The translations under genes and the position numbers were made by a program. A DNA stretch of 53,547 nt from Nemertoderma westbladi (Eukaryota > Animalia > Xenacoelomorpha). The notes under the pieces were generated by a model. It saw only the letters and a list, made by a program, of their open reading frames with translations. It did not search any database and had not been told where the DNA came from. Positions 9,750 to 39,201 of this stretch are shown one piece after another. Location: the NCBI GenBank assembly GCA_032718475.1, contig JAUCBJ010005497.1:1-53547 (forward strand), in the 5' to 3' direction. The stretch's first letter is position 1. Each line of letters starts with the position of its first letter.

Positions 9750-9752
<3 letters not shown>

Positions 9753-13150: not shown

Positions 13151-13265
13151 AAATTTCACTTTTGTCAAATATAAACTTTTCTAACTCCATTTAAAACTCT
13201 TGTTTTTTAATTTATACTGTATCATTGCACATTGCATTAGAAGATGATTAATTAAATATAGGCCT

Positions 13266-16467: not shown

Positions 16468-17623
16468 TGTAAAAGCTTTTGCGGACATAACAAGTCATTT
16501 TTCCCACAATGCGCAGTGTAGGTGCTTTTGCGGACATAACAAGTCATTTTTGCCGCAATGCGCATAATACTCTAAAAGATTGGAGCTCAGATGACGAAAT
16601 CTGTCAGCTGATTTCCTGTAGATGTGGAACCTCTTTGTTCTGCCTATTCAGCCAATCAGAGCGATTTTCAGTTTATGTTGGACAGGGGCCTATGGAAACC
16701 CGCAATGCATTGCGGTCTTTGTTTACCTTTCTGAGCCAGATAACCGGCTTGGAATTATTCTGTACTTCTGTTGTGGAAGTTTCAGACTTTGGCCTAAACA
16801 TCAGAAACATCAGATGGCTTTGATTACAAGAACTTAAAACTATTAACGCATCACACCGCAATTCAACATTGCTGCACATGGAACACTGCATAAGTAACAC
16901 ATACTGACTGTTCACCGCATTATTTGCTTCTGTTATTAATTGGTGTTATGTTAATTGTATATTGCTGATATATTTGGAGAATACCGATGAATAATCATAA
17001 AACCCCCAATCTTCTTGATTACTGAAGGTGAGAGGAACAGGTTTACCGGTAGCAACTGCGACTTACATTATAGTGGTTTTTGTGTGAATTAAATGCTATT
17101 TCATAATCCCTACATGTGTCAGTTGCGATCCTCCTTATATATGATCAAATTCAGTGACGGTCGGCAGATCAGTGCGAAGTAGTGTGAAGTAGTGTGAAGT
17201 CGTGTGAAGTCGTGTGAAGTAGTGTGAAGGTTAATAAAGCATCTCCTAAAGAATGCGCTTTTTACGAAACTCTTTGGCCATCTAGTTGTGATTAGTATAA
17301 GTCATAACTCTGTTTTTATACTTAAAGCGCCACGTCCTAAAGGAACTGTTAATATTTCCCTGAAAGTAAATATATTGTCAGAGATTACATAGTAACGATC
17401 AATCGAATAATACAGTAGGTCTACACCGCAATCACTATCAAAGCATCCGAATCCAGTCTCCCTTAACTGTGGGTGAATGATCGCGCACAGACTGGCTTCG
17501 GCTGATGTAACTTCAGTACATTAAATAATCGATATAGGCTAAAGTCGATTTACAAACTAGAGGACAACTAAAATTGGCAGGTTAAACTGCTAAAGGTCTA
17601 AAAGCGCAAACATTAATAGTTTT
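16468..17623 (+). repeat. 5' LTR of element 1 (minimum extent alignable with the 3' LTR)
   Basis: Shared blocks with 33182-34458, e.g. CCAATCAGAGCGATTTT, AGCGCCACGTCCTAAAGGAACTGTTAATATTTCCC, GGCAGGTTAAACTGCTAAAGGTCT; true CA end and PBS not identified. Confidence 0.8.
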
Positions 17624-19165
17624 AAACTCTTGATTGCACAGTAGGCAATAAATATTTTGTCTATTGTTCTGGTAGGAACAATAATAGATTTATGTTATGT
17701 TTCTTTATTGCACCGTAGGCAATAAAGTCGAATGTACCGGTTGGACGGTGAACTGTAGGCCTAACTACCTAACCACCCGAACCGGTACTTACAGGTACCA
17801 GTATTATTTCGATTGTGAAATATTGTATATTGTAGGCTGTTAGGGGATTAGGGATTGATCACCCCTTATTCCTTTGTATGGTTTACTTATTTCTGTCAGT
17901 TTTATTTATCTGTAAGTGTAATATTGAGCAGAAGGCGTGTAAGCCTGCTCAGATTGTATAAATAATTTGTAGGCCGGATTGTTGTCTGACTGTTGTTATG
18001 TCTGAAGCGATTGCAGTGTGTGTAGAGTGTCTGTCCGATAAAGTGCTAGTTAGCGTACTACTCGGTTAGAATGCCTACTAACTAACCATTTCGGAGTCAG
18101 CATATACTGTAGTTTATTTAGGCTTGCCAGTAGTCTGCCAGCATTTGGTCTGTATTTTGTTTGTATAGTCTGCACGGGTAGCGTAATATTTATTATTCAG
18201 AGTCTATGCAAGTATTCGCAACCTACAACCACCCAAGTTTATTCCTACAGTAATTGTGCTTGTTATACATACCATTATAGTTAAATTAACCCCGGTACTA
18301 CATCAGGGCTGCTTGGCGTAGGTAAAGACTTGTGATTTTGTGCTCCGGTCACTCCAGCAGATACCGTGGTTCTTTTGGCTGTTCAAGTATATTTAACTGC
18401 TGGTTATTTGTTGTATAAGTACTTGTACCTAATTTAGGGTTAAGCGTACAGTGCTTTCCGAAAGTAATTTGGTGTGTAGGCAGTATATTTGTGTTGTAAA
18501 GTGGTTAATAGGCACGTTAGATCTGGTTGGCTGCGGTAATTAACTTCTAGGTAAGGACACTCCGGGTACATAATGTAGTACTTATAGAGCTAAGACTATA
18601 AGTCGTCAGATGGTGGTATTTTCTTATCTGGACAATGCAATTTACTTACTACTGCTTTATTGTTTTCAAATACTGTAGTTCCCTGTCAGTTTGTAAGAAC
18701 CAGAAATTCTAACTCCTTGTTAGACTGGTTTGTAGATTTGTTGTAAAATTACCCTAAAAATTTGTACGTGTAACTTTTTAGTGTTTATTTAGAGATTGTA
18801 ATCTCAATCTGTAATTGTAAGTAATTTGTAGTGATAAGTAACTTAGTAGAGTGGAGTTGTCTGTATTGGTGATTAACGTGTTAATTGTTGGTCACTATAC
18901 AGATAATTCTGCATTGCTGGGCGTGCGGCTTTGTGTAGTGACTCCTTACCCAGAAATAATAACATTTATTTCAAACATTGTCAAAAACCCATTGTACGGG
19001 TATATATATATTATAAATCAACTCAAACAGATTTATAAAATAGTAGGCCTGTTATACATCCATTAGGTCTTAATATCAGTTGAACTACTGCTTAATAACA
19101 GTAATAAAGTAAAAGGGAAGTAACCCCAAAATTCAGAAATTCAGTTATTATAAAATAATTGACAT

Positions 19166-19415
19166 TACCGGTATTTATGGTAGGCTTATTATATTTATTT
19201 ATATAAATTTAGGCTGAAATTAAATACCGGTATTCTGAGACTAATCCTAGTCTATAATAATACTTATATATACTATAGGTGTATACCGGTATTTACGGTA
19301 GGCTTATTATATTTATTTATATAAATTTAGGCTGAAATTATATACCGGTATTCTGTGACTAATCCTAGTCTGTAATAATACTTATATATATATACTATAA
19401 GTGTATACCGGTATT
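19166..19415 (+). repeat. About 118-bp tandem duplication in the 5' leader of element 1
   Basis: TACCGGTATTTA.GGTAGGCTTATTATATTTATTTATATAAATTTAGGCTGAAATTA... occurs twice. Confidence 0.85.
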
Positions 19416-19552
19416 TTAATATATTATATATATATCACGTTACACTGAGTAACGGTATCGGTAATTAATTACTAGGCTTACAGTTGATACTGAATTACTA
19501 GACTTGCTTTAACTGTCATTATAGTAGTAGGCATTTAACTGCAATATAAATC

Positions 19553-22500
19553 ATGGCTGACACAAAGCAAACACTGTCAGATAGTCTCCTAGAAAGAACA
19601 GTCTGTGACTCAGATAAGAGTATAGAACATCTGAGACAGAAGTCCAAGTCCCCTACATCGTCCCTCATCCCTACAGTAGTAGTATCAGACCCTAGGCTAG
19701 TAAAGCACCATAGATTTATCATAGGCACTAGGGCTCAAGTCAAGTGGGACCAAGAGGCAGCTGTTAAACAGCAGCAGCACCCGAACCAGGAACTTATTTC
19801 TCATCGGCCCGATAACTCCAGTAGTTCAGATACTGTAGAGTTGACACCCGAGATCGGAGCAAGGATGACAGAAGCAGTTTATCCAGATCCACTTCTAATT
19901 CTTCCTGGAGCCGTACTCACTAGAGTATTGATCACTGTGGAAGAACATCAAATCGATTGGGCAAGAAGTAAGCGATCGACCAGGGACAGTTATGCGGGAT
20001 ACACGATGGAGGAACTGAAGTCTATTGTCGAGACGCAATGGAACTTCCCCGGACCTGGACTCCCGTTTAACTTATCGGAAGCTGCCTGGGAGGACTTATA
20101 CAGGATGGGAGTAGTAAGGGACACTCGAGATCCAGCTGTGTGGAAGAGGTCGGCAGCAGGATATGTCCAGGGATTCTTCAGCTCTTTGGAGCGCTTAGAG
20201 GAACACCTGTTTCAACAACGTCAAGGACCTCAAGAGCAGGGAGAGCTGCTTTATCAAGTGCGAGAACGAATTTTACGGATCAGACTAATCCTTTCGGCCT
20301 TTGAAGAAGCTTCGAAGAGAAGCCAAGACACGTCGTTGCAAGTGGCTGCAAAAACTTGGTTCCAACGGGTGAGTCTTAAAGTCCAGGGAATGACACAATG
20401 GAAAGCTCAACTAACAGAGCGCATGACCCACGGATAATCAACAGACGCTACCTTTTCTCAGGTGGAAAGCGAAGCTATATCCGAAAAACCTCAGAAGAAG
20501 GATGCTATTGACATCTATATGTCGGACTATCAACGATTTATAGGTGACAAAGAGTTAAGGAGACGGCTAGCTGGACTTCACCCTAATAGTGAGGGAGCCA
20601 AATTTGTGTTAGACTCGTAAGATGCGGTAATATTAGCCGTGGAGCAGGCTAAATTTGATGAAAGCATCCTCATGGCAATGGATCAAGAAGAACAGTTAAA
20701 GAAACGGCAAATAGAAGACCGAAGGTCAGCAGCAGCGGCAGAATCTGAGAGGAAGGCATCAGCTGCAGAGGTTGAAAGAAAGGCGACAGCAGCAGCAGCA
20801 GCGGCAGAATCTGAGAGGAAGGCGTTAGCTGCAGAGGCTGAAAGAAAAGCGGCAGCAGCAGCGGCAGAATCTGAGAGGAAGGCGTTAGCTGCAGAGGCTG
20901 AAAGAAAGGCGGCAGTGGCAGAAGCAGAATTGAAGGCTTCTGAAACGACTACCCAACTAGAACTGGAGAACCTTCAGGCGAAACAAGATTACTTGAAGAA
21001 ACAGAGAACAGCTACTCAGATGCAGCTGCTAAGTCGATCTACTCCCAGGAATCAGGGATTTACATCCTCTGATGAAGGCGATACAACAGATCCTGAAGGT
21101 AGAGGACATAAATCTCGTTCAAGCGGACGTAGAAGAGGGCCACACCGGCAGAAATTGCCTAATTTGCCTCCAGCTGTGAGAAGGCAACTAGCTAGTGTAG
21201 ATTTAAGTAATCCTGAGCCTACAGACCAAATTATTAGAGTAGAAAGACTCCCTACTATAGTAGATGAGCCTGAAATAATTAGGCCTGTTCTTGAAGCCAC
21301 TCCCTCTGTAATAGAAAATCTAAATCGCCTGCTCGGTCAGCTAGAAGAACAACAAAAACGTTCTTCCCAGCAGGTCCGAGAGTTGGAAGGGACTGTTCAG
21401 CAATTAAAGGGAACAGTAAGAGAGAGTAGGTTAGAGTTGCAAGAAGTGCAGCAGAGTATCGCTTTAGAACGCGATAAATTAGTAAATATACAAATGGGTA
21501 TACCACCACCCCCTGTAACAATGTGTCAACCTGTTAGGTCTGAAGTATTTCATGCGCAAGGTGTGGAGCCTACACGCATCTATACTGCTAGTGAAGTAGA
21601 AACTCCTATAGTAAACCCTATTAAGGGTAATTATAAACCTGTTGATAATGATATTCCATATAGACCTGATCATAATCCGAGAAATTTATATACCGATAAC
21701 TCGATACTAAATAATACGATGGCCCAAGAAAGTTTTACGCGTCAAATGGCTAGAACCGAAGCCCGTCAAGCGGTAAAGGTGGGAGAGATCATCAAGTTCA
21801 ATGGAGATGAGATGAAATGGTTACCTTTTAATGAATATTATAAAGATAACATACAGAACTCTGTACTATCTAACGGAGAGAAACTTAGATTCCTCATCGA
21901 GTGCTTGGAAGGACCTCCCAAGTTAATGGCGTTAAAGTTTATTGGACATCCAGATGGATTGAGACAAGTTTGGGATACACTAAACATCAGGTATGGTAAT
22001 AGGACTAACATAGCTAGGTATTTGTATGTGAAATCAGTAGCGCCCCGGAAGTTACTTAGTAGCGGGATTATCGAGTTCTCCGATGAGATCCAGGAGATCT
22101 GTAGACAGCTAGATTGGTTAGGTAAGTCTCAGGAATATCAGAGTTCCATGGTTGTTGGAGCTGCAGCATCTACTTTGCCAAAGGGTGGAGTAGGCACTCG
22201 TTGGGACAAAAAGGTTCTTTATATGATGGACCAGCAACAAAGGGACCCTACCATGGCTGATCTCATGTCATTCTTAAATGGAGAGGTAAGATTACAGTTC
22301 CTAAAGCAGTCCCGAGAGAAGACACTGGAAAACAATGTGAGTGAAAAACCCATTTCTAGGAGAAAGGTAACACCAGTGTGTTATACAGACGACGGCGAAA
22401 GCCAGACCTCCCACGAGGAGAACAGCGGGAAAGACACCGAAAGATCTTACTATGTCAACAAAATACGGAAAGACGTAAGTAAATCTAAGTCTCGAACCAG

Positions 22501-25500
22501 TGACAGTAGAGAACAGGTAACAACAACTCCTACGTCTCCTAAGAGAATTCATGGAAGAAAGCCCGAAGAAAGAACAAGTGTGCACAACACCACACAGGTT
22601 AAAGTAAGTAACATCAAACCCAAATGTGCATTGTGCGACGGGCCCCATCGCTTGAGTGGATGTGATGAATTCTTGAAGAAATCCCTAAAGGATAGACGTG
22701 ATGTCATGTGGGATAAGCGGTTGTGTTATAATGTTCTCAGACAAGGACACCAATGGCGGACCTGTTACTCAGACGCGTGGTGTGCTAAGTGCGGCGCGAA
22801 ATATCATATCTTGCTGCACACAGAATTTGACAGAACACGCACGAGTCAGGTGAGTGAGCCTGAACTACATGTCCAATTCAGTGATGTGAACAACACTGAC
22901 CACAGCTCTGAGATGGAAGGATTCTATACGGACGAATTCTCCGACGAAAACGAATCCTGTTATATGATAAACACCGCAGTGTATCGAGCACTTACGTATG
23001 AGACTGAAACAAGCGAAGAAGATCCTCGACTGACTATTCCGGACCGGCAACCATCTTGGAAAGCGCCGACTTCCAACGTCAGAATCCGGGAATTCCCTGA
23101 CCGCAACCATTACAAATGTACGCGGGAAGAACAAGAGTAGGTTGGTACTTCACTGGACCTTCCCGTAGAACACTAATGGAAAGACTCCCTCAGGAGAGGA
23201 TACATCAGGTGAGTGAATGGGAAGAGGAAATCAGTGAGGGAGAAACCACAACTGAGGGAACACCATACTCCTCAGATAATGACGATATTACTCAATTATA
23301 CGATGAGGAAAACACAATCGACCTCCTCACCGAAAATGAAACTTGGATAAACCAAGTAAACCTGTGCCATCTCATCAATCATGGCGGACAATTCACCTAC
23401 AATGACGAATTAAACGAAGTGATTGATCGATATAATAATAAAATTCGCGATGAACACGCCGTACGATTCTTTACTCAAGAAGCCGTAGAGCCTAATTCCT
23501 ACGACAAGGCCTTATCCATCGAGGAAGAGAGAGCCAAGCAGATTCAGGAAACGCCTACCTGTTTTCTGAAAGATGAAGGTCGCTATGAGATTGGTCTTCC
23601 GTTCCGACGGCGAGAGCCCAACTTTATAAATAACCGACCTTTAGCGGAAAAGAGAATCGCGCAACTACATCGGCGTCTTACGGCCAATGTTTCAGCTAGG
23701 GAAATGTACAAAACCCAGCTGAAGAAATTCATCGATAAGGGATATACGGAGCGAGTACCGGAAGAAACACCCATAACTGAGAGAACGTATTATCTAACAC
23801 ATCATTACGTTCCCAAACCCGGTAAACCCAACAAAGTCCGGGTAGTGTTTGACGGCTCCGCCCTTTACATGGGCCAATCCCTGAACTCCGAATTGTTGCC
23901 GGGACCCAACATACTCCAATCCTTGTTGGGAATACTATTAAGATTACGGCAATATTCTATCGCTTTCGCTTCGGATATAAAAGGCATGTTCTTACAATTC
24001 AAGGCGCTGGATAGGGATTGAGACAGCCTACGATTTCTGTGGTAGCCTGAAGGAGACCTCAACCTAAAACCGGTGGAGTACTGGATGACCATCCAGGCTT
24101 TCGGGATCATCTCGAGCCCCTCGAACGCTTGTTCAGTAGTGCGTACCACTGCTGATGACAACCGAGACGCCTTCTCTAAAGCGGTTATCGACAACATCAA
24201 ACGGGATATATACATGGACAACAATTTAAAGTCCCTCCCATCAGTGGAAGAAGCCATTGATGTTGCCAAGGGAACGGTAGAGTGCTTGCAACGCGGTGGA
24301 TTTCGACTAACAAAATTCACTAGTAACTCCCGTGAGTTTCTGGAATCGATCCCGGTAGAAGAGCGAGGTATTAAAGATCTGGACCTCATCAAGGATGATC
24401 TTCTGGAAACCAAGACGCTTGGTTTAAAATGGGACACGGAGAGAGATATCTTGTTTTTCCAGTTAAAACAGCGAGATAATCCAGTTAGAACTAAACCGAT
24501 TTGTCTAAGTATCCTGAGCACTTATTTCGATCCATTGGGATTTATTAGTCCAGTTATATTGGTTGCTCGGAGCCTAGTGCAACAAATGTGGCTTGAAAAC
24601 CACTCGTGGGATGATCCACTTAAGGGAGAACTACTAAAGAAGTGGATGAAATGGGAAGATTCTCTACCGTCCATCGAGAACTTTACGATTTCCCGTTCAT
24701 ATTTTGGTCACGTTCTCCCCACGTATTCCTATCAACTCCATGTGTTTGGAGACGCCAGCGATATGGGAATAGGTATAGTAGCCTACCTGAGGGTTGAAAC
24801 TCCAGATGGAATTAAAGTTGCCTTGGTCACCTCTAAGGCCTTGATAAACAACAAACTACGAGTTCCTCGAGCGGAGTTAAAGGCGGCTCTATACGCTACA
24901 GCCATCGGCCGGAATGTAACAGAACAGATCGACTATCCACTGGAGAAAACTGTCTATTGGACTGATGCTTTACTCGTTTTGGAGTATATAACCAATGAAG
25001 TCTGTCAGTTCAGCGTCTTCGTTACCAACAGAGTAGCCATTATACTTAGTCGCTCTAATGTAGATCAATGGAGACATTGCCCTGGGACGATTAATCCAGC
25101 CGACATCGCCTCTGGAGGAGCAACCCCGCAAGAACTGATAGATACTCCAGACTGGTTAGGTGGACCCGACTTCCTAAGTAAAGAAGAGGATGAATGGCCT
25201 CCCCATCTCACCATGGCTGAGATTAGACAAGCCAAGGGAGCGGAGAAAGTCAAACCTAAAACCCGGACGAGTAAATCAAAGTTATTTAAACCCGTGATAG
25301 ATCTATCTGTACTACACATTTCCAGGGACGACGCTGTGGATCTAAACTCCCCCACCACGAACAGATCTGTTATAGACATCAGAGAAAGAGACTGGAAATC
25401 TGGAACACCAGATGTCTCGCAAGGACTCTCACCTCTCCTGCAGAGAGCAATAAATCACTATAGCTCCTGGAATCGGCTTTGTAAGGCCGTCGTGTATTTG

Positions 25501-27122
25501 AAGCGATGCTTCCATCATCACTATTCCAGGACGAAGATCGCTAGTGATACCGCTCCACTGACATCCGAGCAGGTCCATGCTATTAAAGATCTTCCCACAT
25601 ACAAACTGTCGGATAGGTTTCTGACAGAGAAGATCAGTTACCAAGAGCATGAAGCAGCCAATAAGCAGATACTGAGACTCCTGCAATGCTATGAAGATTC
25701 CGATAAGTATTTCCTGTTGTTGAGAAATCCACAGATGCGCTTAAGGGATCGTTTCTCTAGCACAATGATAGATGGGTTAAGATAGGAGGGTTAAGATAGA
25801 AGGGATGATAGATAGGAGGGAGATTAACTAATGCTCCATTGTCCTTTGACACTAAATTTCCCATACTCATTAGAAATCTTGAAATACAAGTCAAGATGAT
25901 TGTAGATGTTCACAGTAGGCTTTACCATGCTGGTAGAGAACGAGTTCTTAGCGAAATTCGAACTCGCTATTATTTCCATAAACCCCGTAGAGCTCTGAAC
26001 CAAGTTCTTAGGAACTGTATACCCTGTAGGAAAGCATTCAGTAGGCCTTTAACACAGCGAGAGGCAGAATTACCTTGGGAATGAGTAAGCTTCTATGAAC
26101 CACCCTTTACTAATACTGGTGTGGATTTATTTGGCCCTATTGAAGTATATCGTGCTAGGACTATAGTCAAGCGATGGTGTGTCATCTTTGTCTGTATGAC
26201 TTGTAGAGCGATCCATCTAGATATGGTGAACGATCTATCTACCAACAGCTTCATACTGAGTTTATGCCGGCAGATCGCTCGCTTTGGAACTAGCAACACG
26301 ATGAGATCTGATAAGGGAACGAACTTCATTGGCGCCAATAATGAGATCAAAGCTTACGTTAAAGATTGGAACCAAAGACAGGTGGACGATCAGCTAAGGG
26401 TAACAGCATCTAGCTGGACCTTGAACGCCGCCGACACCCCTTGGTGGGGAGGAAGTTGGGAGAGATTAATAAGGAGCGTGAAGACAGCATTTCACTTTAT
26501 AGTGCCTTGCCGCGCGTATCTCACTGACGAACTTTTGCGGACGTTAATGGAAGAAATCGCCGCCTATCTTAACGAGAGACCGCTTATGCCAGTCTCATCG
26601 AGTCCCGACTCCCTAGAAGCGCTAACACCCGCGCATTTCCTACTGAAGAAACCTGTAGCCATGCTCCCACAATCGGAAATCAATGACGGAGACGAATACT
26701 GCCAACAAACTTGGCAACTCATACAGTTATTATCCCGTCGTTTCGCTGACCATTTCGAAAAACATTATTTGCCTACGCTACAACTTCGAACCAAGTGGTT
26801 TGCGCAGCAAGAAAACGTCAGCGCTGGAGACATGGTCCTTATTGTGGAATCAGATCTTCCACGTAAGCGGTGGCAGACAGGTCGTATCATCGAGACTCAT
26901 ATATCCGATGATGGTTTAGTGCTATCGGTAGAACTCGTCGTCATGCGACGTAACTTTAAGAAACCTGGAATTGTATTTGAAACACAACAACTCAATCACC
27001 CAGTTGGTCGTTTATGTTTACTGGAAAGAGACAGAGAACTATCCGGAAACTATGGAAGGCAAGATACTCTTCCCACGACCACCTCCCTAATCCAACAAAC
27101 ATCTAGGGACTCCCCAACGTAA
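19553..27122 (+). pseudogene. Disrupted BEL/Pao gag-pol of element 1
   Basis: Gag IIKFNGDEMKW..F, knuckles CALCDGPH.LSGC and CAKCGAKYHILLH, KVRVVFDGSA, SDIKGMFLQ, RT YMDN (YMDD mutated), RNase H LHVFGDAS, IN HAG..CIPC, GVDLFGP, SDKGTNF, WERLIRSVK. In-frame stops at 20435, 20618, 23098, 24019, 24043 and 26082; protease deleted with a frameshift near 23000-23100; second frameshift near 25790-25830. Confidence 0.93.
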
Positions 27123-27645
27123 CAGCATCTGGAGTGGGTGTGTGACTATATTATTTTATATTTTTTTTATTATTTTATATTTATGTATGTATTATTATGT
27201 AATTTTATTATAATCGTTTTCTTTAATTTTATTTAGTAGAATATTATTTTAGCGATTATTTAGTAGATTAGTGCAATATATATATTCGTGTTTATTACTT
27301 AATTACTTAGCATTATATTTAGTGTAACGGCGAGAAATAATTATTTTTCTCTTTCCTTACTGTCCGTATCATATTATAAATACGTGACTACAGTAAGATG
27401 AAATGTCCGTACTTATTAAAGTACAATACCGCCCCTACTATACTCAAGTAGTATTGGTAAGTAGAGTATTAGGAATGCAAAGTTCAGATCCTCGTGTTTC
27501 GGCTAAACCAAGCTCTGGGTAGACCTTGGAATCGACTTGCCTCTTCTCACTGACATTGCTTCTTGCAATATTGCTCTCATACCGTATATTAAATAATACA
27601 TATAGTAGAATGATGTCCATTTAACAGTAGCGTAAAACGCAAAAT

Positions 27646-28057
27646 AAATCTGTTAAACCCTTTGACCATCTGCAATTCTAGTCGATTAAGATATCGCGGC
27701 ACCCACCGATATACTTGAAAGACAAAATTCTAGAATCAGTGGTTAACGTCCCCAGACATGTTCTGGAATAAATCGGTGCCCATCTTAAATATTAAATATT
27801 TAATAAATATTTATAAAATCTATTAAAACAAATGTTATAATAGAGTAAAAAGCAGACAAAGAAACTCTAAGGAGTTTGTAAACCAAGAAAATCTATAAAT
27901 CCAAAATCTGTTAAAATTCAGATCCTTTAAAATTCTAGTCGATTAAGATATCGTAGCACTTACCGATACTCTTAAAAGGACAAATTTCCTAGAATTAAGG
28001 ATCCTAGTCCCCAGACATGTTCTGGAATAAAATTGTGTCTATTTAATATTAAATAAT
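27646..28057 (+). ncRNA. Two tandem (257-bp period) copies of a putative structured RNA element
   Basis: Nested stems with different sequence but preserved pairing in the two copies (see findings). Confidence 0.5.
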
Positions 28058-28850
28058 AAAATTTACGGGAATAAATTTAAATTCATATCCTCTCATGAAT
28101 TTGATAAATTGTCATTTTATACAATTTATAACATTCCCAAAATTCCATTAATTAATAGATCATGGGAGCGGAGATTCACCCTATTATATATTAGTGTGAG
28201 AGAATCTCCAATGTATAGTCAATAGCCAATAAAATTCATAAAATCATGTATAAAGGGGAATATTGACAATTAAAGAATTACTATTAAATAGCATCCCAGA
28301 TCTGTATGCATGAGAATTACCCTAATTCTACTGCTAGCTTTCCATAATGTCACCATAGCAACAACCACGCTAGAATTAGAAGCGAGTTAAAAGAACAATA
28401 GAAAGCTTGCCCCATTGAATAGCATACGGAATAAATAGCACACTGCTAGTATCCAGGGATACATAATAATAACGTGGCATTCTGGAAGGCACTTGACTAA
28501 CGGACAAATGGCCCGAATGTGTACAATTTGTGACAGTTGTGTGGAATTTGTGCATTTATAGGTGAATGTTACTACTAAAGTGTGTTTACAGTAGCAAGTC
28601 GCAGTTGTGAAAGTTGCCCTACCTCTATAGCAAGAACCTGAAGTAATTCTAAGCCCTTGGGACGGACAGTGGAGTGACTCGCACTGGTTATTGTTGTCGT
28701 TGTGTAGCTACTACGTTGGCGAGAGGCACAGCGACGACAGTACATCGGCGCTGAGGATCTTGCGCTGTCCGGGGGCATTGAGGGGGAGGCAGCGACGACC
28801 GCTAGCCTAAATATAATTAATTATAATATCGATAAACTCATATAGCAGCT

Positions 28851-29684
28851 ATGACTGAGTTGATAGAAGATGATCTTGGTATCAGGGAGCGATATACCCT
28901 ACCATTGCAAGCGTTTGTTGATAGTTTAATAAGCGGCGATGCTAGTCAACCCACTACGGAGGATGATGGCTGTTATATCGAACCGCCAATGTCAAAGGAA
29001 CAGCTCACGCGTGAATTGGACTATAGAAAATTCACTGCTCGCTATACGCATCGTAATGGTACGTATATGGACTTCTTAACTACTGGTCATCCTATCGATT
29101 TACACGATACGGACGATGTAGACACTGAAAGGGAAATGGTCCTATTTAAATATCATACCCAGCGGAGTTGGAACGATAAACTGAGAATCGAACATGAGAA
29201 TTCTATTCGAAACCGACTCGAAAGAGAAGACGTTGAAGAGCCGGATAAACGCAGTGACTTCAATGAATATTTGGAATTCTTGAGAGAAACATATCTCAAT
29301 GTAGCCAGTCAACAAAATCTAGAAACTCGATATCCTCAAGGTATACATCATGACCCTATGATAGAACTCAAACGACTCTATTTCACTATGATGTATCTTA
29401 CCGCCGATCGTCCACTACCTGTTATCCCGGATAGTTTTGAACAAATGGAAGAATATTGCAAAACTGGAGAACGTTCACCCGCGTTTCCTCTACAGGACGT
29501 ACGTCTTTGGTATTATTGTGACGAATGCCCTAGACCCAACCAACAAATTGAAAGACATAAACATCCGCGGAGACGTTGCGCTAAACACAGTTTTACGCGT
29601 TATACTTACGGGAGTTTCGAGCGAAACCTGTTCGATGTATCACCTAAGATCGCTCGTCTTAAACGATCACTGAATAAACCATGA
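28851..29684 (+). CDS. Accessory ORF A of element 1, 277 aa, unknown function, C-terminal Cys/His cluster (CDEC..HKH..CAKH)
   Basis: Open frame with ATG; its stop overlaps the next start (ATGA at 29681-29684). Confidence 0.7.
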   Translation: MTELIEDDLGIRERYTLPLQAFVDSLISGDASQPTTEDDGCYIEPPMSKEQLTRELDYRKFTARYTHRNGTYMDFLTTGHPIDLHDTDDVDTEREMVLFKYHTQRSWNDKLRIEHENSIRNRLEREDVEEPDKRSDFNEYLEFLRETYLNVASQQNLETRYPQGIHHDPMIELKRLYFTMMYLTADRPLPVIPDSFEQMEEYCKTGERSPAFPLQDVRLWYYCDECPRPNQQIERHKHPRRRCAKHSFTRYTYGSFERNLFDVSPKIARLKRSLNKP

Positions 29685-32600
29685 TCAGAGTTCCGGAATA
29701 CTCGGTCAGGCCTCCTCATAACCTAGTGAGACCTCAAACTCTCGATCCTAACAGTATCACTGATCCTCCCGAACTATATTCCCTGTTCAAAGACTTAGTG
29801 TTACCCGAACAACTAATCGGTGGTGCTCCGGTAGTGGGTTCGTTAGACATCCGCCCATCCTACTTAGCCGGATTGGGACGCGGGCAACTAATATCGCCCT
29901 TTGATCCTTACAATCGTCCAGGATTAAACCCGATTCAACCCGCCACGGAAGTCGAGGAGAGCATTATAAGAAACGCTTTAGACGCCATTCGACAGAAAAT
30001 CGGAAAAGGAACACAAGATTGTTTAGAGAAACGTAAACTACACCAACAAGTCCAATCGGTGAAGGAGTTAGCCTTGCCACAGTTCGATAGGGAAATCCAA
30101 AACCTCGAGGAAGACATAGAGCTTGGACGCACGTATTCTCTACAAGAATTTTTAGAAGAACGCTTACAAAGACAAGCGGAAGAAAATCTAATCGAAGAGA
30201 AACACACGAAACTGGAAGAAAGAGAAGAAGCCGCTTTAGCCCAACCTGAAGCTCAAATCCTCATGACCGACCTCTACTCTAAAACCGTTCGTCATCCCTC
30301 GATGATTACACATTTCGGGGACAAGCTCTTCGCGACGATACAGCCTCAACCGGTTGATATCAGTACAGGATCGCAAAATCTTATCGCTGACGCCCCTATG
30401 TTACAGCGTCCGCCGATCGAGGCCGCTCGTGTTGATGGTATCCTCGTTGAACCTCCGGACAATCGAGCGGATCTTGTCCGTCGTATGGTACACGATGTCA
30501 ACATACGCGCTAGACCTTTACAGAACTCGTTTTATGGGATTAAAGACCACCCTTATTACGTTAATCTGACTCAATATTATATGGTAAAACCAGAGGACCC
30601 GACACATAATTTAAAGTTTCTACCACTAATAAATCCTCTAGACATTGTTGAACTCGAACAATTGCAGAAACATCTGGATCAGTTAGTAAAGGTAAACTCA
30701 TTTAGAAAACCATATAACATTTCTCGAATCGAGAAAGATATAGAACCTCCTTATAATCTCGATGGATTTATTAAAACTCGATTAGTCCATTGGAATCTAG
30801 ATGTATTATTTGAAGAGGAGAAAATACCAAGATATGGAAATGTGGAGACGTATACCACTCGGCACATGAAGTATAGTGATCTCCCTGACGCTAACCAATG
30901 CGCCACCTTGTGGCATCCAGTAGGGATGACCCTAGAGAACGCCACCAAGGAGTGGAATGAAACTCTTAATGTTATTGAGATGTATGGAGTTGTCACCTAC
31001 GATAATGAAGGTAGCGTTCCGGTCGGAGAACTAGGAACTACGCGCATGATCCACATACGCGGATTAGCTGGTTCTACCCACGTGTTTACTCGAGCGTGTT
31101 CCGACGTGATGGATTATTCTTTTGAAACTCTCACCGAAACACAAAAGAATCTCCGACATGGACAATTCGAACTCGCGCAGCGTTACGTCATTGACACCGA
31201 ACGCAAACCGGCCATGGGCATCGATGGATCGATGTTACCCCAGCCCGTACTCGAGATGTTGTTCAACGAAAGAATCCTTAAAATCGGCTCAGCTGTTTAT
31301 GGAGATCTCCAAAACGACTTTCGGAATATGGAGAACATTCCATACCCTTTCGTTGATACACAGCTGATTGCTCCCTGGGCAGAAGGCCGAGGTTTCTTCC
31401 GCACCATGTATGCTAATACGTCTAGCAACATTACAAAGGTGCAACGAACTTCCATCGGACATCTTGCCTTTCAGGAATACGGATGGAATTTCAAAGTCGG
31501 AAATCCCATTAACTATCAACAAGTATACGGAGACCATTATTCTCGATTATACTTTGATGGACCATTGACCGCACCGGGCGCCGTGTATAGCTTCATTAGT
31601 GTTCCACTCCGTCCCTCCTTAGCTATCTACACGATCTTTGAAAACACCGCACTTGCCGGTTGGCTAGCCGATGTGTGCAGTCGTACTATACGCGCCCATC
31701 CATTAATACTTGGGACCAAACTCGCTAAGCTAGATGAACATAATAAATTCATCCGTTTCGAATGTTTCCGGCGATTTTTAACCCCGTTCCGCAACGTGGA
31801 TAGCCAATTTAAAGACCGCGCTTTGACCAAACTCAGCCTAAGAATCTCAGCTGCAGAGAAGTTGGATAGCGCTGGATTCGCCATTTTCAAAGAGATTTGT
31901 ATATCGAACTTACACTCCTCTGTTATACAAAGACCTCGAATCCCCACAGGTTATTCTGTCGTGGAAATTCAGACAATAGGTCCACCTGAAGAGACAGACA
32001 CGCCCACCTCAGCTATGCACTTGGAAGACGAACCAATATGTTTAGAATCTGAGGAGATTCAGCCTATCACGCCCCGGAACAGCGACAACGATTACATCAT
32101 AGAATGGTATCAAGGTCCACAGTGTCTCACTGCGTACGATTATCGACATGCCAACTATGTTTCTAGGCAACGTTGTCGGTTATGCGCATCGAGAGACCAC
32201 GATACGCCCATGGACACCAACGTCCGCTGTTCCTATTTCCAAGAACAACCGACTATGGAAATTTATTGCGCATATTGCAGACTCAATAACTTGCATATTT
32301 TTGCAGTTTGCCCTCAATTTATGACTCAATGTCACCATTGTCAACTAAAGGGACATGCCAGTTTCGACTGCCCTTTTAATCACGATTTGGAAAGCGTAGA
32401 TGAAATGATCACACTAGGTTACATCAGAGCTTGGGAAGCGAACGCTGATTTACATTGTGATTCGCGCCATCGCTATTATTCCGGACGCGCTTACGAAGGA
32501 GTTTATGCGTTCCATCCTTATCTATTCGCTTCGGTTGAACAGAAATCACGCATATCAAGTTACGAGCTACTGAAGCGCGTCGGAGAATGTATTTCAACCA

Positions 32601-33103
32601 AATTCGTACGCAAATTTCTCAGGAGTGTTAATCCTAGCGACCTTCATTCCTATAACTTAATCAATTATATCCGTCAAGATCCAGACTATGGAGACTTGTT
32701 TGTTAACTCACACCCCGAGTTACAGGAAGTGTATCGACGGCCTTACGAATACCGAGCCCGCGAACGCGAGTTGGAAAGGACCATTAAACCCCGGAGGTTT
32801 CTAACTGCCTATGGTCCACCCACGGCCCTCGTTCAGACCACTCGTAAAGGACCCGTAAGAGCGGCTGTCTTGAAACGAGCTCTCAAAGCCGTTAGACCCC
32901 TCTCACCTGACGTTGACGTCAATCAACCCGGTACTTCGACTGGCGGATACACCGACCATAATCCTACACCCCCTGATGCAATCATATTGCACCCTTCACC
33001 CAGGAGTTATAGCCCTCCTTGTAAAGTGGCTCGCCCCAAAGAGAAAAGGACTCTGGCTAGCTTTAAGAAACTGCGTAAACGCCGTCCGCGCAAGAAAGAC
33101 TAA
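29681..33103 (+). CDS. Accessory ORF B of element 1, 1140 aa: coiled coil + DEDDy (WRN/RNase D/EXD-like) 3'-5' exonuclease-like domain + 3 CCHC zinc knuckles + basic C-terminal tail
   Basis: ExoI VVTYDNEG (D441, E443); LPQPVLEMLFNERILKIGSAVYGD (D542); FVDTQLIA; TSIGHLA...YG; ExoIII-like PLRPSLAIYTIFE (Y650, E654); knuckles at aa 832-897 including the canonical CHHCQLKGHASFDC; ends KKLRKRRPRKKD. Confidence 0.8.
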   Translation: MIRVPEYSVRPPHNLVRPQTLDPNSITDPPELYSLFKDLVLPEQLIGGAPVVGSLDIRPSYLAGLGRGQLISPFDPYNRPGLNPIQPATEVEESIIRNALDAIRQKIGKGTQDCLEKRKLHQQVQSVKELALPQFDREIQNLEEDIELGRTYSLQEFLEERLQRQAEENLIEEKHTKLEEREEAALAQPEAQILMTDLYSKTVRHPSMITHFGDKLFATIQPQPVDISTGSQNLIADAPMLQRPPIEAARVDGILVEPPDNRADLVRRMVHDVNIRARPLQNSFYGIKDHPYYVNLTQYYMVKPEDPTHNLKFLPLINPLDIVELEQLQKHLDQLVKVNSFRKPYNISRIEKDIEPPYNLDGFIKTRLVHWNLDVLFEEEKIPRYGNVETYTTRHMKYSDLPDANQCATLWHPVGMTLENATKEWNETLNVIEMYGVVTYDNEGSVPVGELGTTRMIHIRGLAGSTHVFTRACSDVMDYSFETLTETQKNLRHGQFELAQRYVIDTERKPAMGIDGSMLPQPVLEMLFNERILKIGSAVYGDLQNDFRNMENIPYPFVDTQLIAPWAEGRGFFRTMYANTSSNITKVQRTSIGHLAFQEYGWNFKVGNPINYQQVYGDHYSRLYFDGPLTAPGAVYSFISVPLRPSLAIYTIFENTALAGWLADVCSRTIRAHPLILGTKLAKLDEHNKFIRFECFRRFLTPFRNVDSQFKDRALTKLSLRISAAEKLDSAGFAIFKEICISNLHSSVIQRPRIPTGYSVVEIQTIGPPEETDTPTSAMHLEDEPICLESEEIQPITPRNSDNDYIIEWYQGPQCLTAYDYRHANYVSRQRCRLCASRDHDTPMDTNVRCSYFQEQPTMEIYCAYCRLNNLHIFAVCPQFMTQCHHCQLKGHASFDCPFNHDLESVDEMITLGYIRAWEANADLHCDSRHRYYSGRAYEGVYAFHPYLFASVEQKSRISSYELLKRVGECISTKFVRKFLRSVNPSDLHSYNLINYIRQDPDYGDLFVNSHPELQEVYRRPYEYRARERELERTIKPRRFLTAYGPPTALVQTTRKGPVRAAVLKRALKAVRPLSPDVDVNQPGTSTGGYTDHNPTPPDAIILHPSPRSYSPPCKVARPKEKRTLASFKKLRKRRPRKKD

Positions 33104-33181
33104 CTGTTTAGAGTATTTACGTATATTAGAAACTGTGATTTTGTATATGTTATAGACTCAAATCCCATTTTCTGGGAGCGG

Positions 33182-34458
33182 TGTAAAAGCTTCTGTGGGA
33201 TCTAGCTGGCCCTTTTGCTTTGCGGTCCGAGTTCCCCCCAGGCGCTGGAATACTCTAAAAGGGCTTTCTAACTATATATATATTCCCCTCGCCCGCAAGG
33301 TGCCGTAATAGGTGTTTTAACGGACATAAAAGTCATTCTTCTAGATTTGTACTTTAGAGGACATAATCCGCAATCTTGTGACACGATAAGCTAGATATTC
33401 TTGAAAACAGTGTCGCTACCATGACGACGGCTAACAGCTGATATTGCCACGTCGACATTTCTTTGTTTCTTTGTTCTCTCGTGGTTCGGTTGACCAATCA
33501 GAGCGATTTTTTCTGTAGATGTGGAGCTTTGGGCAGATCATGCTAGAGCGTTCAGTCTTACTGTTTTTCTTGATACTGTTGTGTTGTTGGTATCTAGGCC
33601 AGGAACACCGGCTCTAGAGTTAACTTGTTTCAGACTTTTAGAAGAAACATTAGTAGGCTTAAGATTATAGAGCGTATAACTGTTATCAACACAAATCAAA
33701 TCAACTCATATATCACATATCGGTCCATATCAGTACATTGTCATATCATATCTTAACCTACCGTCTTAATGCTATTTACTGTTGTGTTTTGGTTGAATAT
33801 TATTTGGAGAATATTTATAAAGAACCCAAATTTCCCAATTTTCTTGATACACTACAGGTTAGAGAGAGACGGGTTATATATAGCGATTGCGACTTATATT
33901 GTTGTGGTTTGTAGTGAATTTAATGCTATTTGATAAGCACTACATTGGTCCGTTGCTGTTCTCTCTATATATGATAAAATTCATTGACGGTCGGCAAATT
34001 AGTGAGCAGTATTGTGTGTTACCGGTAGTGTGCATGATTGTGACTGATAACTAAGCATTTCCTAAAGAATGCGCCTCATACGTGAATCATAAGCCTTACC
34101 GACTTACCGTTGTGATTAGTGTAAGTCATATCTCTGTTTACTTAGATAGAGCGCCACGTCCTAAAGGAACTGTTAATATTTCCCGAAAGTGAATAATATT
34201 AGTCAGAAATTATTTATTAACGATCAATCGAATAATACAGTAGGTTTCACTGCAATAATAATCTAAGCCCTCAGAATCCAGTCTCCCGGGAATATCCAGC
34301 GGGTGAATGGACGCGCACTAGGCTGGCTTCTGCTAATGTTGTGTTTATTGGTATTAAATATTTGTCTTCTTCTAAAGTATATTTATAAACCAAAAGACAT
34401 ATAAATTTTGGCAGGTTAAACTGCTAAAGGTCTTCCAAAAGCGCGTACACATAGTTTT
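33182..34458 (+). repeat. 3' LTR of element 1 (diverged from the 5' LTR, apparently truncated)
   Basis: Follows the PPT and starts TGTAAAAGCTT; similarity to the 5' LTR ends near 34458; no CA plus CTAAC TSD found. Confidence 0.8.
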
Positions 34459-34504
34459 CGCAATTTCGTTTCTCCCAAGTTCAGTATCCCTTTCAAGCTG
34501 ATCT

Positions 34505-34915
34505 ACAGTATATATGTCATATTCGGTCGTCCACGGATACGCTTTCTTGTGTTGGTTGCCAGAATAGTAAGTAGTTCTGGTATCACCTCGTCTTTACTTC
34601 CTTCTCCTGCAGTGTCCACAGAATCTTAATCTGCGTTCACTGAGGGTGGTTGATACAGGTGGCATTGAACCATAAAGTTCGGCATTTGTCATGTGTTGAT
34701 TCCAGCTGACATTTACAGTGCTGCCATGACCTTCGTAGTCTTGTGTAACAACTACCAATCCTTGTTCAAATGATTCGTCAGTATCCAGGACTCACCTTCG
34801 TATAAGAGTACACTTTCCATTGTAGCTCGAAGGAAGTTGGTCTTCAGTTGCCTAGAGAAGTCTGATTTCCAGATAGTATCCATTTTGATAGAGCTACCCA
34901 TGCCTTTGCTTTCCT
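34505..34915 (-). mobile_element. Degraded RTE-clade LINE fragment (RT C-terminal region)
   Basis: Frameshifted minus-strand translation RKAKAW..KMDTIWKS..SRQLKTNFLRATMESVLLYEGESW...NVSWNQHMTNAELYGSMPPVSTTLSERRLRFCGHC...RGRP; not shown in the ORF track. Confidence 0.8.
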
Positions 34916-35626
34916 AACAACTTCTACTGTTTATGTATTTTTTGCTGGTCTCTATCCATTACCCACAGTACAGAGTGCTGGTAGTCGTTACAGATTTAAT
35001 TTTCGGAGTAATCAGCTGTTATTTATGTCGATTTTCCCCTGTCGAGGGTTTAATTGTGATTGCCGAAAAAGACTCTCTCCCTCTGGGATATAATGTATAA
35101 TTTACCGAACCAGCGTTAGCGAGGTTATTTAAATATAAATTCGCTGAATAAAATTTGTTTGTCTGATTTTTGGGTTCCCCACGACCTTCTAGATGTAGAA
35201 GGGCGCGGTGACCCACCCCCAATTCACCCTTAATCACCGGATTGCGGTACCAGTCCAATACTTCACTACAGTAGGCCTACCTGTAGATCTCCAGTATTGT
35301 CAGGTACTGTACAAATGATTAAGGCTGCAGTGTGCCGCCCGCGGGGTTCACATGTACAGTATAAGATTTCAAAATTTCAAATACTGTTAAAAAGGCGGCA
35401 GTGTACTGCCTTTGAGGGTAGGATCAGTAGTAATATGGTAAATCCTCTTTATAATATATAAATCTCTGGTACGACTTAGAAAATAAACCTCTTGGTCCAA
35501 TCAAATATATTTCTCTTAGTCCTTCTCCTTGGGAGGAAAAATTAATGTAATTCAACTTTGGTACGCAAAGAGTGAGTAGGCCGTCGCATGTTTATTAATT
35601 TGTAAGAATCACATTAAAATTACATC

Positions 35627-35698
35627 CTCCCCGACCGGGAATTGAACCCGGGTCTTGCATGTGACAGACGCAGATACTAACCACTATACTATCGAGGA
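35627..35698 (-). tRNA. tRNA-Asp (GTC)
   Basis: Identical 72-nt sequence to the other two copies although the flanks have diverged; T4 terminator. Confidence 0.93.
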
Positions 35699-35890
35699 GT
35701 GCGAAAGAATGGGAAACAAATGTGCCCCGATGTTCTTATATGAACTTCAGTATCACTCACAATGTCATTGTTGTATAATTACTACATGGTTGGTTCTAAA
35801 TTTAATAATTACAGTATTTTACACATGTTATCGCTAACACAGAGATGTGTAATATTCCGAACTAGCACAACTGAAGAGAGATGTTAATTA

Positions 35891-36140
35891 CACCATGGCC
35901 GTATCGAAATAGCCCTTAATACAACAACCATTTTTAGGGGGTCGGAGCCCCCCCCCCCCCCCAATTTTTTTCAAATTTCCATAAAATGCTACGAAATTTG
36001 GTATGATGATAGATCGACACCTTTTCTTACTGGTGGCCTGGCCGGATTTTTTAATTTATGAGCAATTTGAAAAAAATTAGGGGGGGGGGGGGGGGGGCTC
36101 CGACCCCCTAAAAATGGTTGTTGTATTAAGGGTTATGGTG
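35891..36140. mobile_element. 250-bp MITE with CACCAT...ATGGTG termini, long subterminal inverted repeats and TA target-site duplication
   Basis: CCCTTAATACAACAACCATTTTTAGGGGGTCGGAGCCCC (35913 onward) is the reverse complement of about 36094-36132. Flanked by TA on both sides. Empty site GTTAATTATACAAA is present in copies A and B. Confidence 0.9.
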
Positions 36141-37286: not shown

Positions 37287-37799
37287 CTATTTGTTCTCAA
37301 CACCGCCAGCGGATACTTGGGCCACCTTGCAGCAACAAAGCCGGCAGTAAACAAATATAAGTTGAGCCACAACCATAAACAAGACCAGTATCCAAAAACA
37401 CAAACTTATAAGAATAATATCCTCGCATTTACCGGCTGACGGGTTACTCGAAACAAAAACAATACATTCCGTCATCCCGCGTGCAGTAGCGTGAACAATA
37501 CTGCCAAAGTCGACACAAATTAAGCCAATATGCATACCTTTTAAGGCTTGGGCAGTTGCCCCTTCTTCTGACATCTTACTAAGAATGATACCCATCAATC
37601 CCGCTACAGCTAGCATGAAGCCTCCCCAGACTCCCGCCCAGCTATTCAAGCTGTCGCAACCTGGAACATTCATTCCCAACACGTAAAGAACAAACAATAT
37701 CATTCCAGTAGGGATCATGGCTCGCCCTAGATTTCTGTTTTCCTTTTCCCATCGCCATTGGGGTAAATAAACAGGAGCGGGTGTTCCAATTTGAGCCAT
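37287..37799 (-). CDS. Intronless four-TM membrane protein, MS4A/CD20-like (170 aa from the first ATG)
   Basis: Four hydrophobic segments; WAGVWGGFMLAVAGLMGII resembles the MS4A TM2 W-G-G...G motif; Cys-rich juxtamembrane tail YCRLCCC. Confidence 0.65.
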   Translation of the reverse strand: MAQIGTPAPVYLPQWRWEKENRNLGRAMIPTGMILFVLYVLGMNVPGCDSLNSWAGVWGGFMLAVAGLMGIILSKMSEEGATAQALKGMHIGLICVDFGSIVHATARGMTECIVFVSSNPSAGKCEDIILISLCFWILVLFMVVAQLIFVYCRLCCCKVAQVSAGGVENK

Positions 37800-38589
37800 T
37801 GTGTTAACTCCGGCCTGTTTGTAGTAAAGTTCTACGATCGAATTATTGACCAATAGATATTTTAAATAGTTCGTTAATACGATATAAAAAGTTAAATGGT
37901 GTTTTAATTTTAACTAAGGTACTATACTGTAGATACATTGTGTGTAATGGTGTATTGGTATGTGAATGTAGGCTACTTGGGTAATTGTAGGCCTATGGGT
38001 ACAGTACAGGCCTCTGTCTACCATGTCCTCATTCCATGCCTTGTTCATTTAAAGTAAATTCATAATAATACTCAATAAACAATACACTGAGTATAATGTA
38101 ATGCAGTGTGCCACACCCAACATTCAATCGTAAAAGGCTGCAATGCGATGCGAGAAAGATTGTAATATTCAACTAATTTGAATCTGAACCAAACTGCATA
38201 TTGTATAATACTGTAGGAGAAATTTTTTATTTATATGACAATCGAGGAGATGCAGTTGGCAGTGTTGTATAATAGTTTCATAGCAACAACATTAGGCCTA
38301 CTGTACCTGTACGAACAACTACAGTATAGGCCTAAATATCCAATCGCAGGCCCGGATAACATCCTATGACGTATTGGCTCTGCTCATGAAGTATGAATAA
38401 TATCATAGATCAATAAACTATCGGCATACAGGAAATGTATAGGCCAAGTGTATGCCATTCAGTATAAATAGCCTACAGTCAAGATAAGATACAGTATGAC
38501 CCTTTTGTTTCACTGCCAACCTCAAGATATTGATTATATTTAATTAAATGAGTTTGTTTTGTGGTCTGATTCTCGGACTTAATGATAAA

Positions 38590-39201
38590 TGTTACGGTAT
38601 ATGGCGCTGTATCCACATATATTAGTCATTATGCAGTATGCAATATTAGTCGTTATACTGTACACAATATTAGTCCGTTATACTGTATGTAATATTAGTC
38701 CGTTGTGCAGCATAATATTTTAGATAAGGCATAATAACGCAATGATATTTAGATAGAGAAATCGAAACACCCATATATTTGAATCCATCCATTTTGTATA
38801 GTATGTAGCCCTACCTACGTAATTTTGTATTAGGATATATGTAGATAGTTCCAGGGTAGCGAGTTTATTCGGACCCTGGATTTTGTGCTTGCTGATATTA
38901 GTTTGATAGGGCTAGCATATAGGGACGCTGTCCTGGCCATTCAGCAGCCAGAGACGTGAACCATTACCATATATGGTAATAATTCGAGGTTTGGGCAGGC
39001 AATAGGACTACAATCCGGCCTCCTTATTGGATTAACTGCTTCCAGGTTGGTCTAATGCTAGCGCGGACTGGAGAGCCAATAGGAGAGCGATTGAGTCACC
39101 CTATTGCATCACCCCATCCGGATCACCTATAAATTGGCGGTGTGCCGGTAGAGCCTCACATGACACCTCACATGATCTGCTATCATCTTTGTACTTGCTG
39201 A
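38590..39201 (+). repeat. 5' LTR of element 2 (minimum extent; true 3' end lies further right)
   Basis: Matches 52936-53547 with no difference found by eye. Confidence 0.93.
39076..39133 (+). promoter_or_regulatory. Candidate LTR promoter (CCAAT box about 50 bp upstream of TATAAA)
   Basis: CCAAT at about 39076 and TATAAA at 39128-39133 in U3 position; repeated in the 3' LTR. Confidence 0.5.

What the first reader, a model, noticed from the sequence alone, without database searches (positions are those of the whole stretch)
19553..33103. Cargo ORFs are intact while gag-pol of the same element is disabled
Seen: 7.6 kb of gag-pol has six in-frame stops, two frameshifts, a deleted protease and YMDD changed to YMDN. 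The 4.25 kb of accessory ORFs has no stop or frameshift, whereas several lesions would be expected at the same rate. Inference: purifying selection on the cargo, either in a non-autonomous lineage mobilised in trans or through host co-option of the exonuclease. Alternatively the 3' half was recently recombined in from a younger element.
Basis: partly seen in the sequence, partly recalled or inferred. Interest (0 to 1): 0.72.

Follow-up and report, generated by a model that had tools for sequence, protein, structure and literature searches.

The report
Retrotransposon family carrying an exonuclease-like gene
This is a broken, two-part copy of a BEL/Pao jumping gene whose many relatives carry an extra gene predicted to be an RNA-trimming nuclease; selection preserves that gene across the family, while its intact state in this one copy is likely luck rather than adoption by the host.

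Summary
Observation confirmed: gag-pol (19553-27122) has six stops, two frame changes, no protease core and an altered RT motif, while two downstream ORFs (28851-33103) are open. The contrast is modest (P about 0.01-0.03; 0.11 if the A/B junction, which varies in length among family contigs, is itself a break). The cargo is not a lone host gene: 35,360 contigs of one run lie on the cargo/LTR stretch, up to 20% diverged. Among 22 listed variable coding sites, 17 are synonymous (P 9e-6), so purifying selection acts at family level. For this copy nothing shows selection: near-private changes are 4 synonymous and 4 not, and private divergence (at most 1.4-2.0%) matches that implied by the pol stops (2.0%). 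The two LTRs are only 76% identical and have unrelated flanks, so the copy is likely a chimera of two insertions. ORF B resembles an RNase D-like DEDDy exonuclease with zinc knuckles; the family match is weak and activity is untested. Such cargo is known from bdelloid LTR elements; my searches found none reported for BEL/Pao. Host co-option is unlikely. Whether the gag-pol lesions are shared by other copies stays open.

The parts
16468..17612 (+). 5' LTR (1145 bp, TG...CA), inserted in an interspersed repeat that has a second copy at 11178-13186
   Evidence: same first 10 bases as the 3' LTR; the left flank matches the other repeat copy up to 16468
17613..19552 (+). Long non-coding leader; no canonical primer-binding site found
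19553..23030 (+). BEL/Pao gag (coiled-coil repeats, DUF1759, zinc knuckles) with stops at 20435 and 20618
   Evidence: (DUF1759 E 6e-11)
23031..27122 (+). Broken pol: protease core missing; RT, RNase H, integrase; stops at 23098, 24019, 24043, 26082; frame changes near 23030 and 25790; RT motif reads YMDN at 24211
   Evidence: Peptidase_A17 E 6e-36, DUF5641 E 3e-19; 43% and 38% identity to the intact neighbour
27123..28850 (+). AT-rich spacer with a short internal duplication (27646-27798 / 27904-28055); its last 450 bases are covered by family contigs
28851..29684 (+). Cargo ORF A, 277 aa, no family match, no transmembrane segment
29681..33103 (+). Cargo ORF B, 1140 aa: unknown N-terminus, predicted RNase D-like DEDDy exonuclease domain, Cys/His zinc knuckles, basic C-terminal tail (possible nuclear signal, inferred)
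30860..31789 (+). Exonuclease-like domain: ExoI D-x-E at 30998, ExoII D at 31301, ExoIII Y-x-x-x-E at 31628
   Evidence: Motifs read from the translation and shared with homolog P0001; TIGR01388 RNase D E 0.003 on part of it
32174..32371 (+). Three Cys/His clusters; the last two resemble CCHC knuckles
   Evidence: a two-sequence profile hits retroviral nucleocapsid knuckles at E 0.0013
33172..33181 (+). Polypurine tract; its last 7 bases are the same as those before the neighbour's 3' LTR
33182..34449 (+). 3' LTR (1268 bp, TG...CA), 76% identical to the 5' LTR, abutting a LINE fragment
34450..34900 (-). LINE-like RT C-terminal fragment that forms the right flank (family label recalled from the translated motifs)
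   Evidence: translation; other copies in run X5 continue past 34450 with different sequence (table 7)

Best explanation
This is a broken BEL/Pao retrotransposon copy, likely a chimera of two insertions, whose family carries a 3' accessory gene predicted to be a zinc-knuckle 3'-5' exonuclease; that gene shows purifying selection among the family's many copies, and its open frames in this copy are likely chance survival after about 2% neutral decay. Shown: BEL/Pao gag-pol with eight lesions; open cargo ORFs; many diverged cargo copies with mostly synonymous differences; unequal LTRs with unrelated flanks. Inferred: active members express the cargo (subgenomic RNA or reinitiation at the A/B stop/start overlap); the knuckles bind RNA and the DEDDy-like domain trims RNA 3' ends in a way that helps the element replicate or escape small-RNA silencing (about 50% that it is an active nuclease for the element's benefit; which substrate is untested). 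The protein would act in trans, so deletion derivatives lacking it can spread.
For: Multicopy: 35,360 contigs of run X1 and 10,796 of X3 lie on 28400-34900, spread over all identity classes; single contigs reach depth 14,039 against 26-74 for others in X3. Family-level selection: of the 40 variant rows shown (of 1498), 30 fall in the ORFs; 21 are synonymous, 22 at third positions; the 22 family-variable sites are 17 synonymous to 5 not, against 31% expected (P 9e-6). 25 of 31 listed in-ORF contig pieces have no gap at up to 20% divergence (table 8). No selection seen in this copy: 8 near-fixed differences are 4 to 4 (P 0.20). Share of 31-mers 0.64 and 0.53 in the best runs gives at most 1.4-2.0% private divergence; six stops in pol give 2.0% (0.7-4.3%); at that level P(no stop in cargo) is 0.12-0.05. 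Chimera: LTRs 837/1096 identical, K2P 0.28, patchy (P 0.008), which would predict about 42 stops in pol, not 6; the left flank is one repeat, the right flank a LINE, no target-site duplication. A joint that skips the exonuclease (29215 to 32019) stands at depth 2918 in X5 and in one X4 contig.
Against: All eight lesions lie in the first 55% of coding sequence (P 0.009), which is more than luck predicts if the A/B junction is native; a random frameshift would leave so short a stop-to-stop overlap in about 1% of cases. The 31-mer estimate is only an upper bound (assembly filters, individual differences). The variant rows are a small, support-ranked subset, and only 8 are near-private. No reads were laid on gag-pol. 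The exonuclease call is below Pfam and NCBIfam thresholds. No contig was seen that links cargo to pol in other copies.
Confidence: 0.6

Rival explanations
1. The chimera's join lies between integrase and cargo, and the 3' donor is a younger insertion, so the cargo simply had less time to decay. A join made by the assembly would look the same.
For: LTRs and flanks show two insertions; no lesion after 26082 (P 0.009).
Against: The join could be anywhere in 15 kb. 36-47% of the cargo's sampled words are missing from the three best runs, and several cargo and 3' LTR letters are almost absent from the family pool, which does not look like a very young copy.
Confidence: 0.2
2. The copy belongs to a non-autonomous lineage that lost gag-pol function before insertion, is mobilised in trans, and keeps the cargo under selection because it benefits the copy that carries it.
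For: Protease deletion plus clustered lesions; deletion derivatives do spread in this family (table 5).
Against: A protein product would act in trans, so selection on a passenger copy is hard to get. The abundant derivative seen lacks the exonuclease, the opposite pattern. Unequal LTRs show this unit did not transpose in its present form.
Confidence: 0.12
3. The host has co-opted this copy's exonuclease gene.
For: Open frames; predicted catalytic residues present; host DEDD proteins (Maelstrom, EXD1, mut-7) act in small-RNA pathways (PMC5408684, passages).
Against: Cargo is highly multicopy and LTR-bounded; near-private changes include non-synonymous ones at the neutral rate; best word share in other samples is 0.64, with no listed contig spanning the locus.
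Confidence: 0.04

Closest known systems
DEDDy-type ORF3 of bdelloid LTR retrotransposons Juno and Vesta (Rodriguez, Kenefick, Arkhipova 2017, PMC5408684; abstract, part 1 of 5 and passages read)
   Same: An RNase D-like DEDDy exonuclease ORF downstream of pol, no transmembrane segment, altered acidic motif (DEED there), function untested; a Cys/His motif is noted in some.
   Different: Here the carrier is BEL/Pao; ORF B is 1140 aa with zinc knuckles after the nuclease domain; the last acidic residue is E; a second ORF precedes it. Family variants show a synonymous excess, whereas that paper found near-neutral intragenomic variation in the ORF3s it sequenced (env-like and GDSL). Direct sequence kinship to the bdelloid ORFs was not tested.
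Belpaoviridae / BEL-Pao elements (ICTV profile PMC8742986, whole text; PMC3118150, passages)
   Same: Gag, PR-RT-RH-IN order, BEL-specific Pfam domains, LTRs near 1.2 kb, polypurine tract.
   Different: 18 kb instead of 4.2-10 kb; the third gene region is not env-like; no canonical primer-binding site found; LTRs are not a matched pair.
P0001, a 648-aa unnamed protein from an ENA assembly
   Same: Exonuclease-like domain (29% over 171 aa, pairwise E 1e-13) followed by Cys/His knuckles; same Y-x-x-x-E at ExoIII.
   Different: Shorter; its genomic context could not be fetched, so its link to a retroelement is unknown.
DEDDy domains in Dada DNA transposons and Terminon retroelements (PMC3706591, search listing only; PMC6431247, passages)
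   Same: A transposon-borne DEDDy accessory domain.
   Different: Different classes of element.

Membership tests
BEL/Pao (Belpaoviridae) | Gag-pol with BEL-type domains in PR-RT-RH-IN order | tested here: met
   DUF1759, Peptidase_A17, DUF5641 above Pfam cut-offs; colinear with the intact neighbour; protease core deleted
BEL/Pao (Belpaoviridae) | Flanking LTRs of 0.2-1.2 kb, TG...CA | tested here: met
   1145 and 1268 bp, homologous but only 76% identical
BEL/Pao (Belpaoviridae) | Polypurine tract before the 3' LTR | tested here: met
   Same 7 bases as before the neighbour's 3' LTR
BEL/Pao (Belpaoviridae) | Primer-binding site for tRNA-Arg or tRNA-Gly after the 5' LTR | tested here: inconclusive
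   No CA-TGG pattern next to the LTR end; only a pattern search and the window's tRNA-Asp were tried, not host tRNA-Arg or -Gly
BEL/Pao (Belpaoviridae) | Length 4.2-10 kb | tested here: not met
   16468-34449 = 18.0 kb; the intact neighbour also exceeds it (14.3 kb LTR to LTR)
Single retrotransposon insertion | Near-identical LTRs and a target-site duplication | tested here: not met
   K2P 0.28; unrelated flanks; no duplication
DEDDy (RNase D-like) exonuclease | ExoI D-x-E, ExoII D | tested here: met
   Residues near 441-443 and 542, shared with P0001; motif assignment is by recalled pattern and a two-sequence alignment
DEDDy (RNase D-like) exonuclease | ExoIII Y-x-x-x-D | tested here: inconclusive
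   Y-x-x-x-E in both ORF B and P0001: acidic but not canonical
DEDDy (RNase D-like) exonuclease | Profile match above the curated threshold | tested here: not met
   No Pfam hit for ORF B; P0001 hits PF01612 at E 0.2; TIGR01388 E 0.003 on 46 residues. Atlas feature scores 0.90-0.92 to PF01612 clusters, and the ten best hits with a family agree
DEDDy (RNase D-like) exonuclease | RNase H-like fold | tested here: inconclusive
   Model from a two-sequence alignment had mean pLDDT 28; not used
DEDDy (RNase D-like) exonuclease | 3'-5' exonuclease activity | not testable with these tools
   Needs a biochemical assay
env-like ORF3 | Transmembrane segment | tested here: not met
   Highest 19-residue hydropathy 0.46 (A) and 1.24 (B)
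Domesticated transposon gene | Single or low copy, fixed, copy-level dN/dS below 1 | tested here: not met
   Highly multicopy; near-private changes 4 to 4. Fixation and expression not shown either way

The most novel reading that the evidence does not exclude
A BEL/Pao lineage has captured a zinc-knuckle DEDDy-like exonuclease that works as an element-encoded counter to host small-RNA silencing, and the gene is valuable enough that copies with dead gag-pol, like this one, are selected to keep it.
Probability: 0.1. Interest if true: 0.8.

Novelty: new variant of a known kind. Interest (0 to 1): 0.4.

Why it matters
The function of DEDDy accessory ORFs in retroelements is an open question: the bdelloid paper could not show activity or a benefit. 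This family extends the cargo to BEL/Pao and gives sequence evidence that it is under purifying selection, in a high-copy family that has members with and without the domain. That makes a benefit testable by comparing sub-families.

Tried and rejected
No whole genome is held for the window. Word-indexed homolog searches found nothing for ORF B, only P0001 itself and nothing for the two-sequence alignment; they covered near lengths only. No relative of ORF B in metagenome contigs. An integrase query gave 2 metagenome loci; L001 has no cargo-like ORF in its 2.4 kb downstream and L002 has no downstream sequence; none in viral contigs. PDB sequence search with the nuclease region gave only chance hits. 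AlphaFold model unusable, so no fold search was run. No RNA holder listed; X4 is only guessed to be RNA and was not used for expression. The right-flank LINE does not continue anywhere else in the window. The idea that the 5' LTR is a solo LTR with the left repeat resuming after it was not significant (P 0.07). LTR divergence as an insertion date was rejected because it predicts about 42 stops. CpG decay does not explain the pol lesions (observed/expected 0.90-0.95). The 29215-32019 joint is not an intron (no GT-AG ends) and is out of frame. Three look-ups of earlier findings returned nothing. Five paper searches listed no report of an exonuclease in BEL/Pao; 'exonuclease' has 0 occurrences in the main text of PMC3118150 and PMC13524379. 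Repbase, subscription journals and supplements were not searched and may hold such a record.

Full report
Observation. The region is a BEL/Pao LTR retrotransposon: Pfam finds DUF1759, Peptidase_A17 and DUF5641 above cut-off, and it is colinear with an intact BEL/Pao polyprotein at 41949-50249 in the same window (43% identity over RT-RNase H, 38% over integrase). In 19553-27122 there are six in-frame stops (20435, 20618, 23098, 24019, 24043, 26082), a frame change near 23030 that coincides with loss of the protease core, a second near 25790, and an RT motif reading YMDN at 24211. ORF A (28851-29684) and ORF B (29681-33103) are open.

How surprising is the contrast? With 8 lesions in 7570 bases, 4.5 are expected in 4253; P(0) is 0.011 by Poisson and 0.028 conditionally. 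All eight lie in the first 55% of coding sequence (P 0.009). Two things weaken this. The case was picked because it looked odd. And A and B are in different frames, joined by a 4-base stop/start overlap. A random frameshift would leave so short an overlap in about 1% of cases, which favours a native stop/start junction of the kind used for termination-reinitiation (mechanism recalled; PMC5972666 seen as a search listing only). But family contigs differ in length at this junction in a way that by frame arithmetic puts A and B in one frame: 6 contigs in X1 (34% of spanning depth), 3 in X3 (21%), 1 in X5 (93%), none in X4 (table 4). Both forms seem to exist in the family. If the junction is a break, P is 0.11.

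The element is not one insertion. Both LTRs start with the same ten bases (16468, 33182), and the 3' one follows a purine tract that ends like the neighbour's. Yet they match at only 837 of 1096 aligned columns (K2P 0.28), in a patchy way (P 0.008). Age cannot explain this: half that distance would give about 42 stops in gag-pol. The left flank is an interspersed repeat cut at 16468; the right flank is a LINE fragment cut at 34450. There is no target-site duplication, and neither flank continues on the other side. I infer a chimera of two related sub-family insertions, by ectopic recombination or deletion, or an assembly join. The join was not located.

The cargo is a family gene. Six of 7 listed runs hold part of the cargo, in 4 studies. 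On 28400-34900, run X1 laid 35,360 contigs (7375 at 99% or more, 12,224 at 95-99, 11,630 at 90-95, 4131 below 90) and X3 10,796; this stretch includes the LTR and 450 bases of LINE, but every bin of the ORFs is covered. Single contigs in the ORFs reach depth 14,039 against 26-74 for others in X3, which suggests hundreds of copies (inference; the tool warns that summed depth is no copy number). Of 1498 variant rows, 40 were shown and 30 lie in the ORFs: 21 synonymous, 9 not. The 22 that vary within the family are 17 to 5, against 31% synonymous expected (P 9e-6). 25 of 31 listed in-ORF contig pieces have no gap at up to 20% divergence. So the cargo has been under purifying selection among mobile lineages. 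A joint that skips the exonuclease (29215 to 32019) stands at depth 2918 in X5 and in one X4 contig, so copies without it also spread.

This copy shows no selection of its own. The 8 differences that are near-fixed against the window (97% or more of X1 depth, 95% or more of X3) are 4 synonymous and 4 not (P 0.20 against neutral; small sample). The best runs hold 64% and 53% of the cargo's sampled words, which bounds private divergence at 1.4-2.0%; six stops in gag-pol imply 2.0% (95% range 0.7-4.3%). At those levels P(no stop in cargo) is 0.12-0.05. The two halves therefore look similar in age within wide error.

What the cargo is. A scan of 1.84 billion representatives found one homolog, P0001 (E 6e-6), with the same order of nuclease-like domain and Cys/His knuckles. 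ORF B has D-x-E, D and Y-x-x-x-E motifs at ExoI, II and III positions (motif pattern recalled), a weak RNase D hit (E 0.003) and atlas scores of 0.90-0.92 to PF01612 clusters. It does not pass Pfam's threshold, and the fold model failed (pLDDT 28). The knuckles resemble retroviral nucleocapsid fingers (E 0.0013). Neither ORF has a transmembrane segment, so this is not env. ORF A has no family match.

Mechanism. Most likely (0.6): an accessory gene of an active BEL/Pao family, carried here by a dead chimeric copy that has not yet been hit in its cargo. The product is predicted to bind RNA through the knuckles and trim 3' ends, to the element's benefit; substrate and activity are untested. Rivals: younger 3' half (0.2), non-autonomous lineage (0.12), host co-option (0.04).

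Comparison with what is known. DEDDy ORF3s occur in bdelloid Juno and Vesta LTR elements and in Terminons, with function undemonstrated (PMC5408684: abstract, part 1 of 5 and passages; PMC6431247: passages; PMC6338049: passages). The ICTV profile lists only gag, pol and env for Belpaoviridae (PMC8742986, whole text). Five searches listed no BEL/Pao exonuclease, and the word is absent from the main text of PMC3118150 and PMC13524379 (passages); Repbase and supplements were not seen. The copy is a BEL/Pao member by its pol, atypical in length; ORF B works like a DEDDy nuclease by motif but is not confirmed as a member by profile or fold.

Verdict. New variant of a known kind. The headline asymmetry is real but weak and best explained without selection on this copy. 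The lasting point is a selected exonuclease-like cargo in a high-copy BEL/Pao family. Interest 0.4.

Noticed in passing
window 38589-53547: A second, young BEL/Pao element: intact 2766-aa polyprotein (41949-50249), LTRs identical over the 612 bases visible, 2.7 kb on each side of the ORF, and a GC-rich 3' stretch (50968-52078) with short ORFs that may be its own cargo.
   Followed up: partly
window 29535-29620 and 51163-51250: The C-terminus of cargo ORF A weakly resembles a short ORF in the 3' region of the second element (11 of 29 identical, pairwise E 0.002, shuffle P 0.0015; E 0.47 against the whole window). Possibly a shared accessory motif; not established.
   Followed up: partly
window 29215-32019: Family contigs in runs X5 and X4 join these two places and skip the exonuclease; an abundant deletion derivative in X5.
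   Followed up: partly
window 8187-8260, 13659-13732, 35626-35699: Three tRNA-Asp(GTC) genes on the minus strand, two within a 736-base duplication that is 99% identical.
   Followed up: no
window 20727-20927: Ala/Glu/Arg-rich 66-base tandem repeats in gag; the second element has a similar charged repeat at 43077-43253.
   Followed up: no
window 7183-7745: Tandem array with a 68-base period.
   Followed up: no
window 35909-36136: Inverted repeat with 54-base arms, 98% complementary, 120 bases apart; looks like a small MITE.
   Followed up: no
window 8736-9800 and 37287-37913 (minus strand): Open frames of 354 and 208 aa; the first has no Pfam match, the second only a sub-threshold CD20-like hit.
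   Followed up: no
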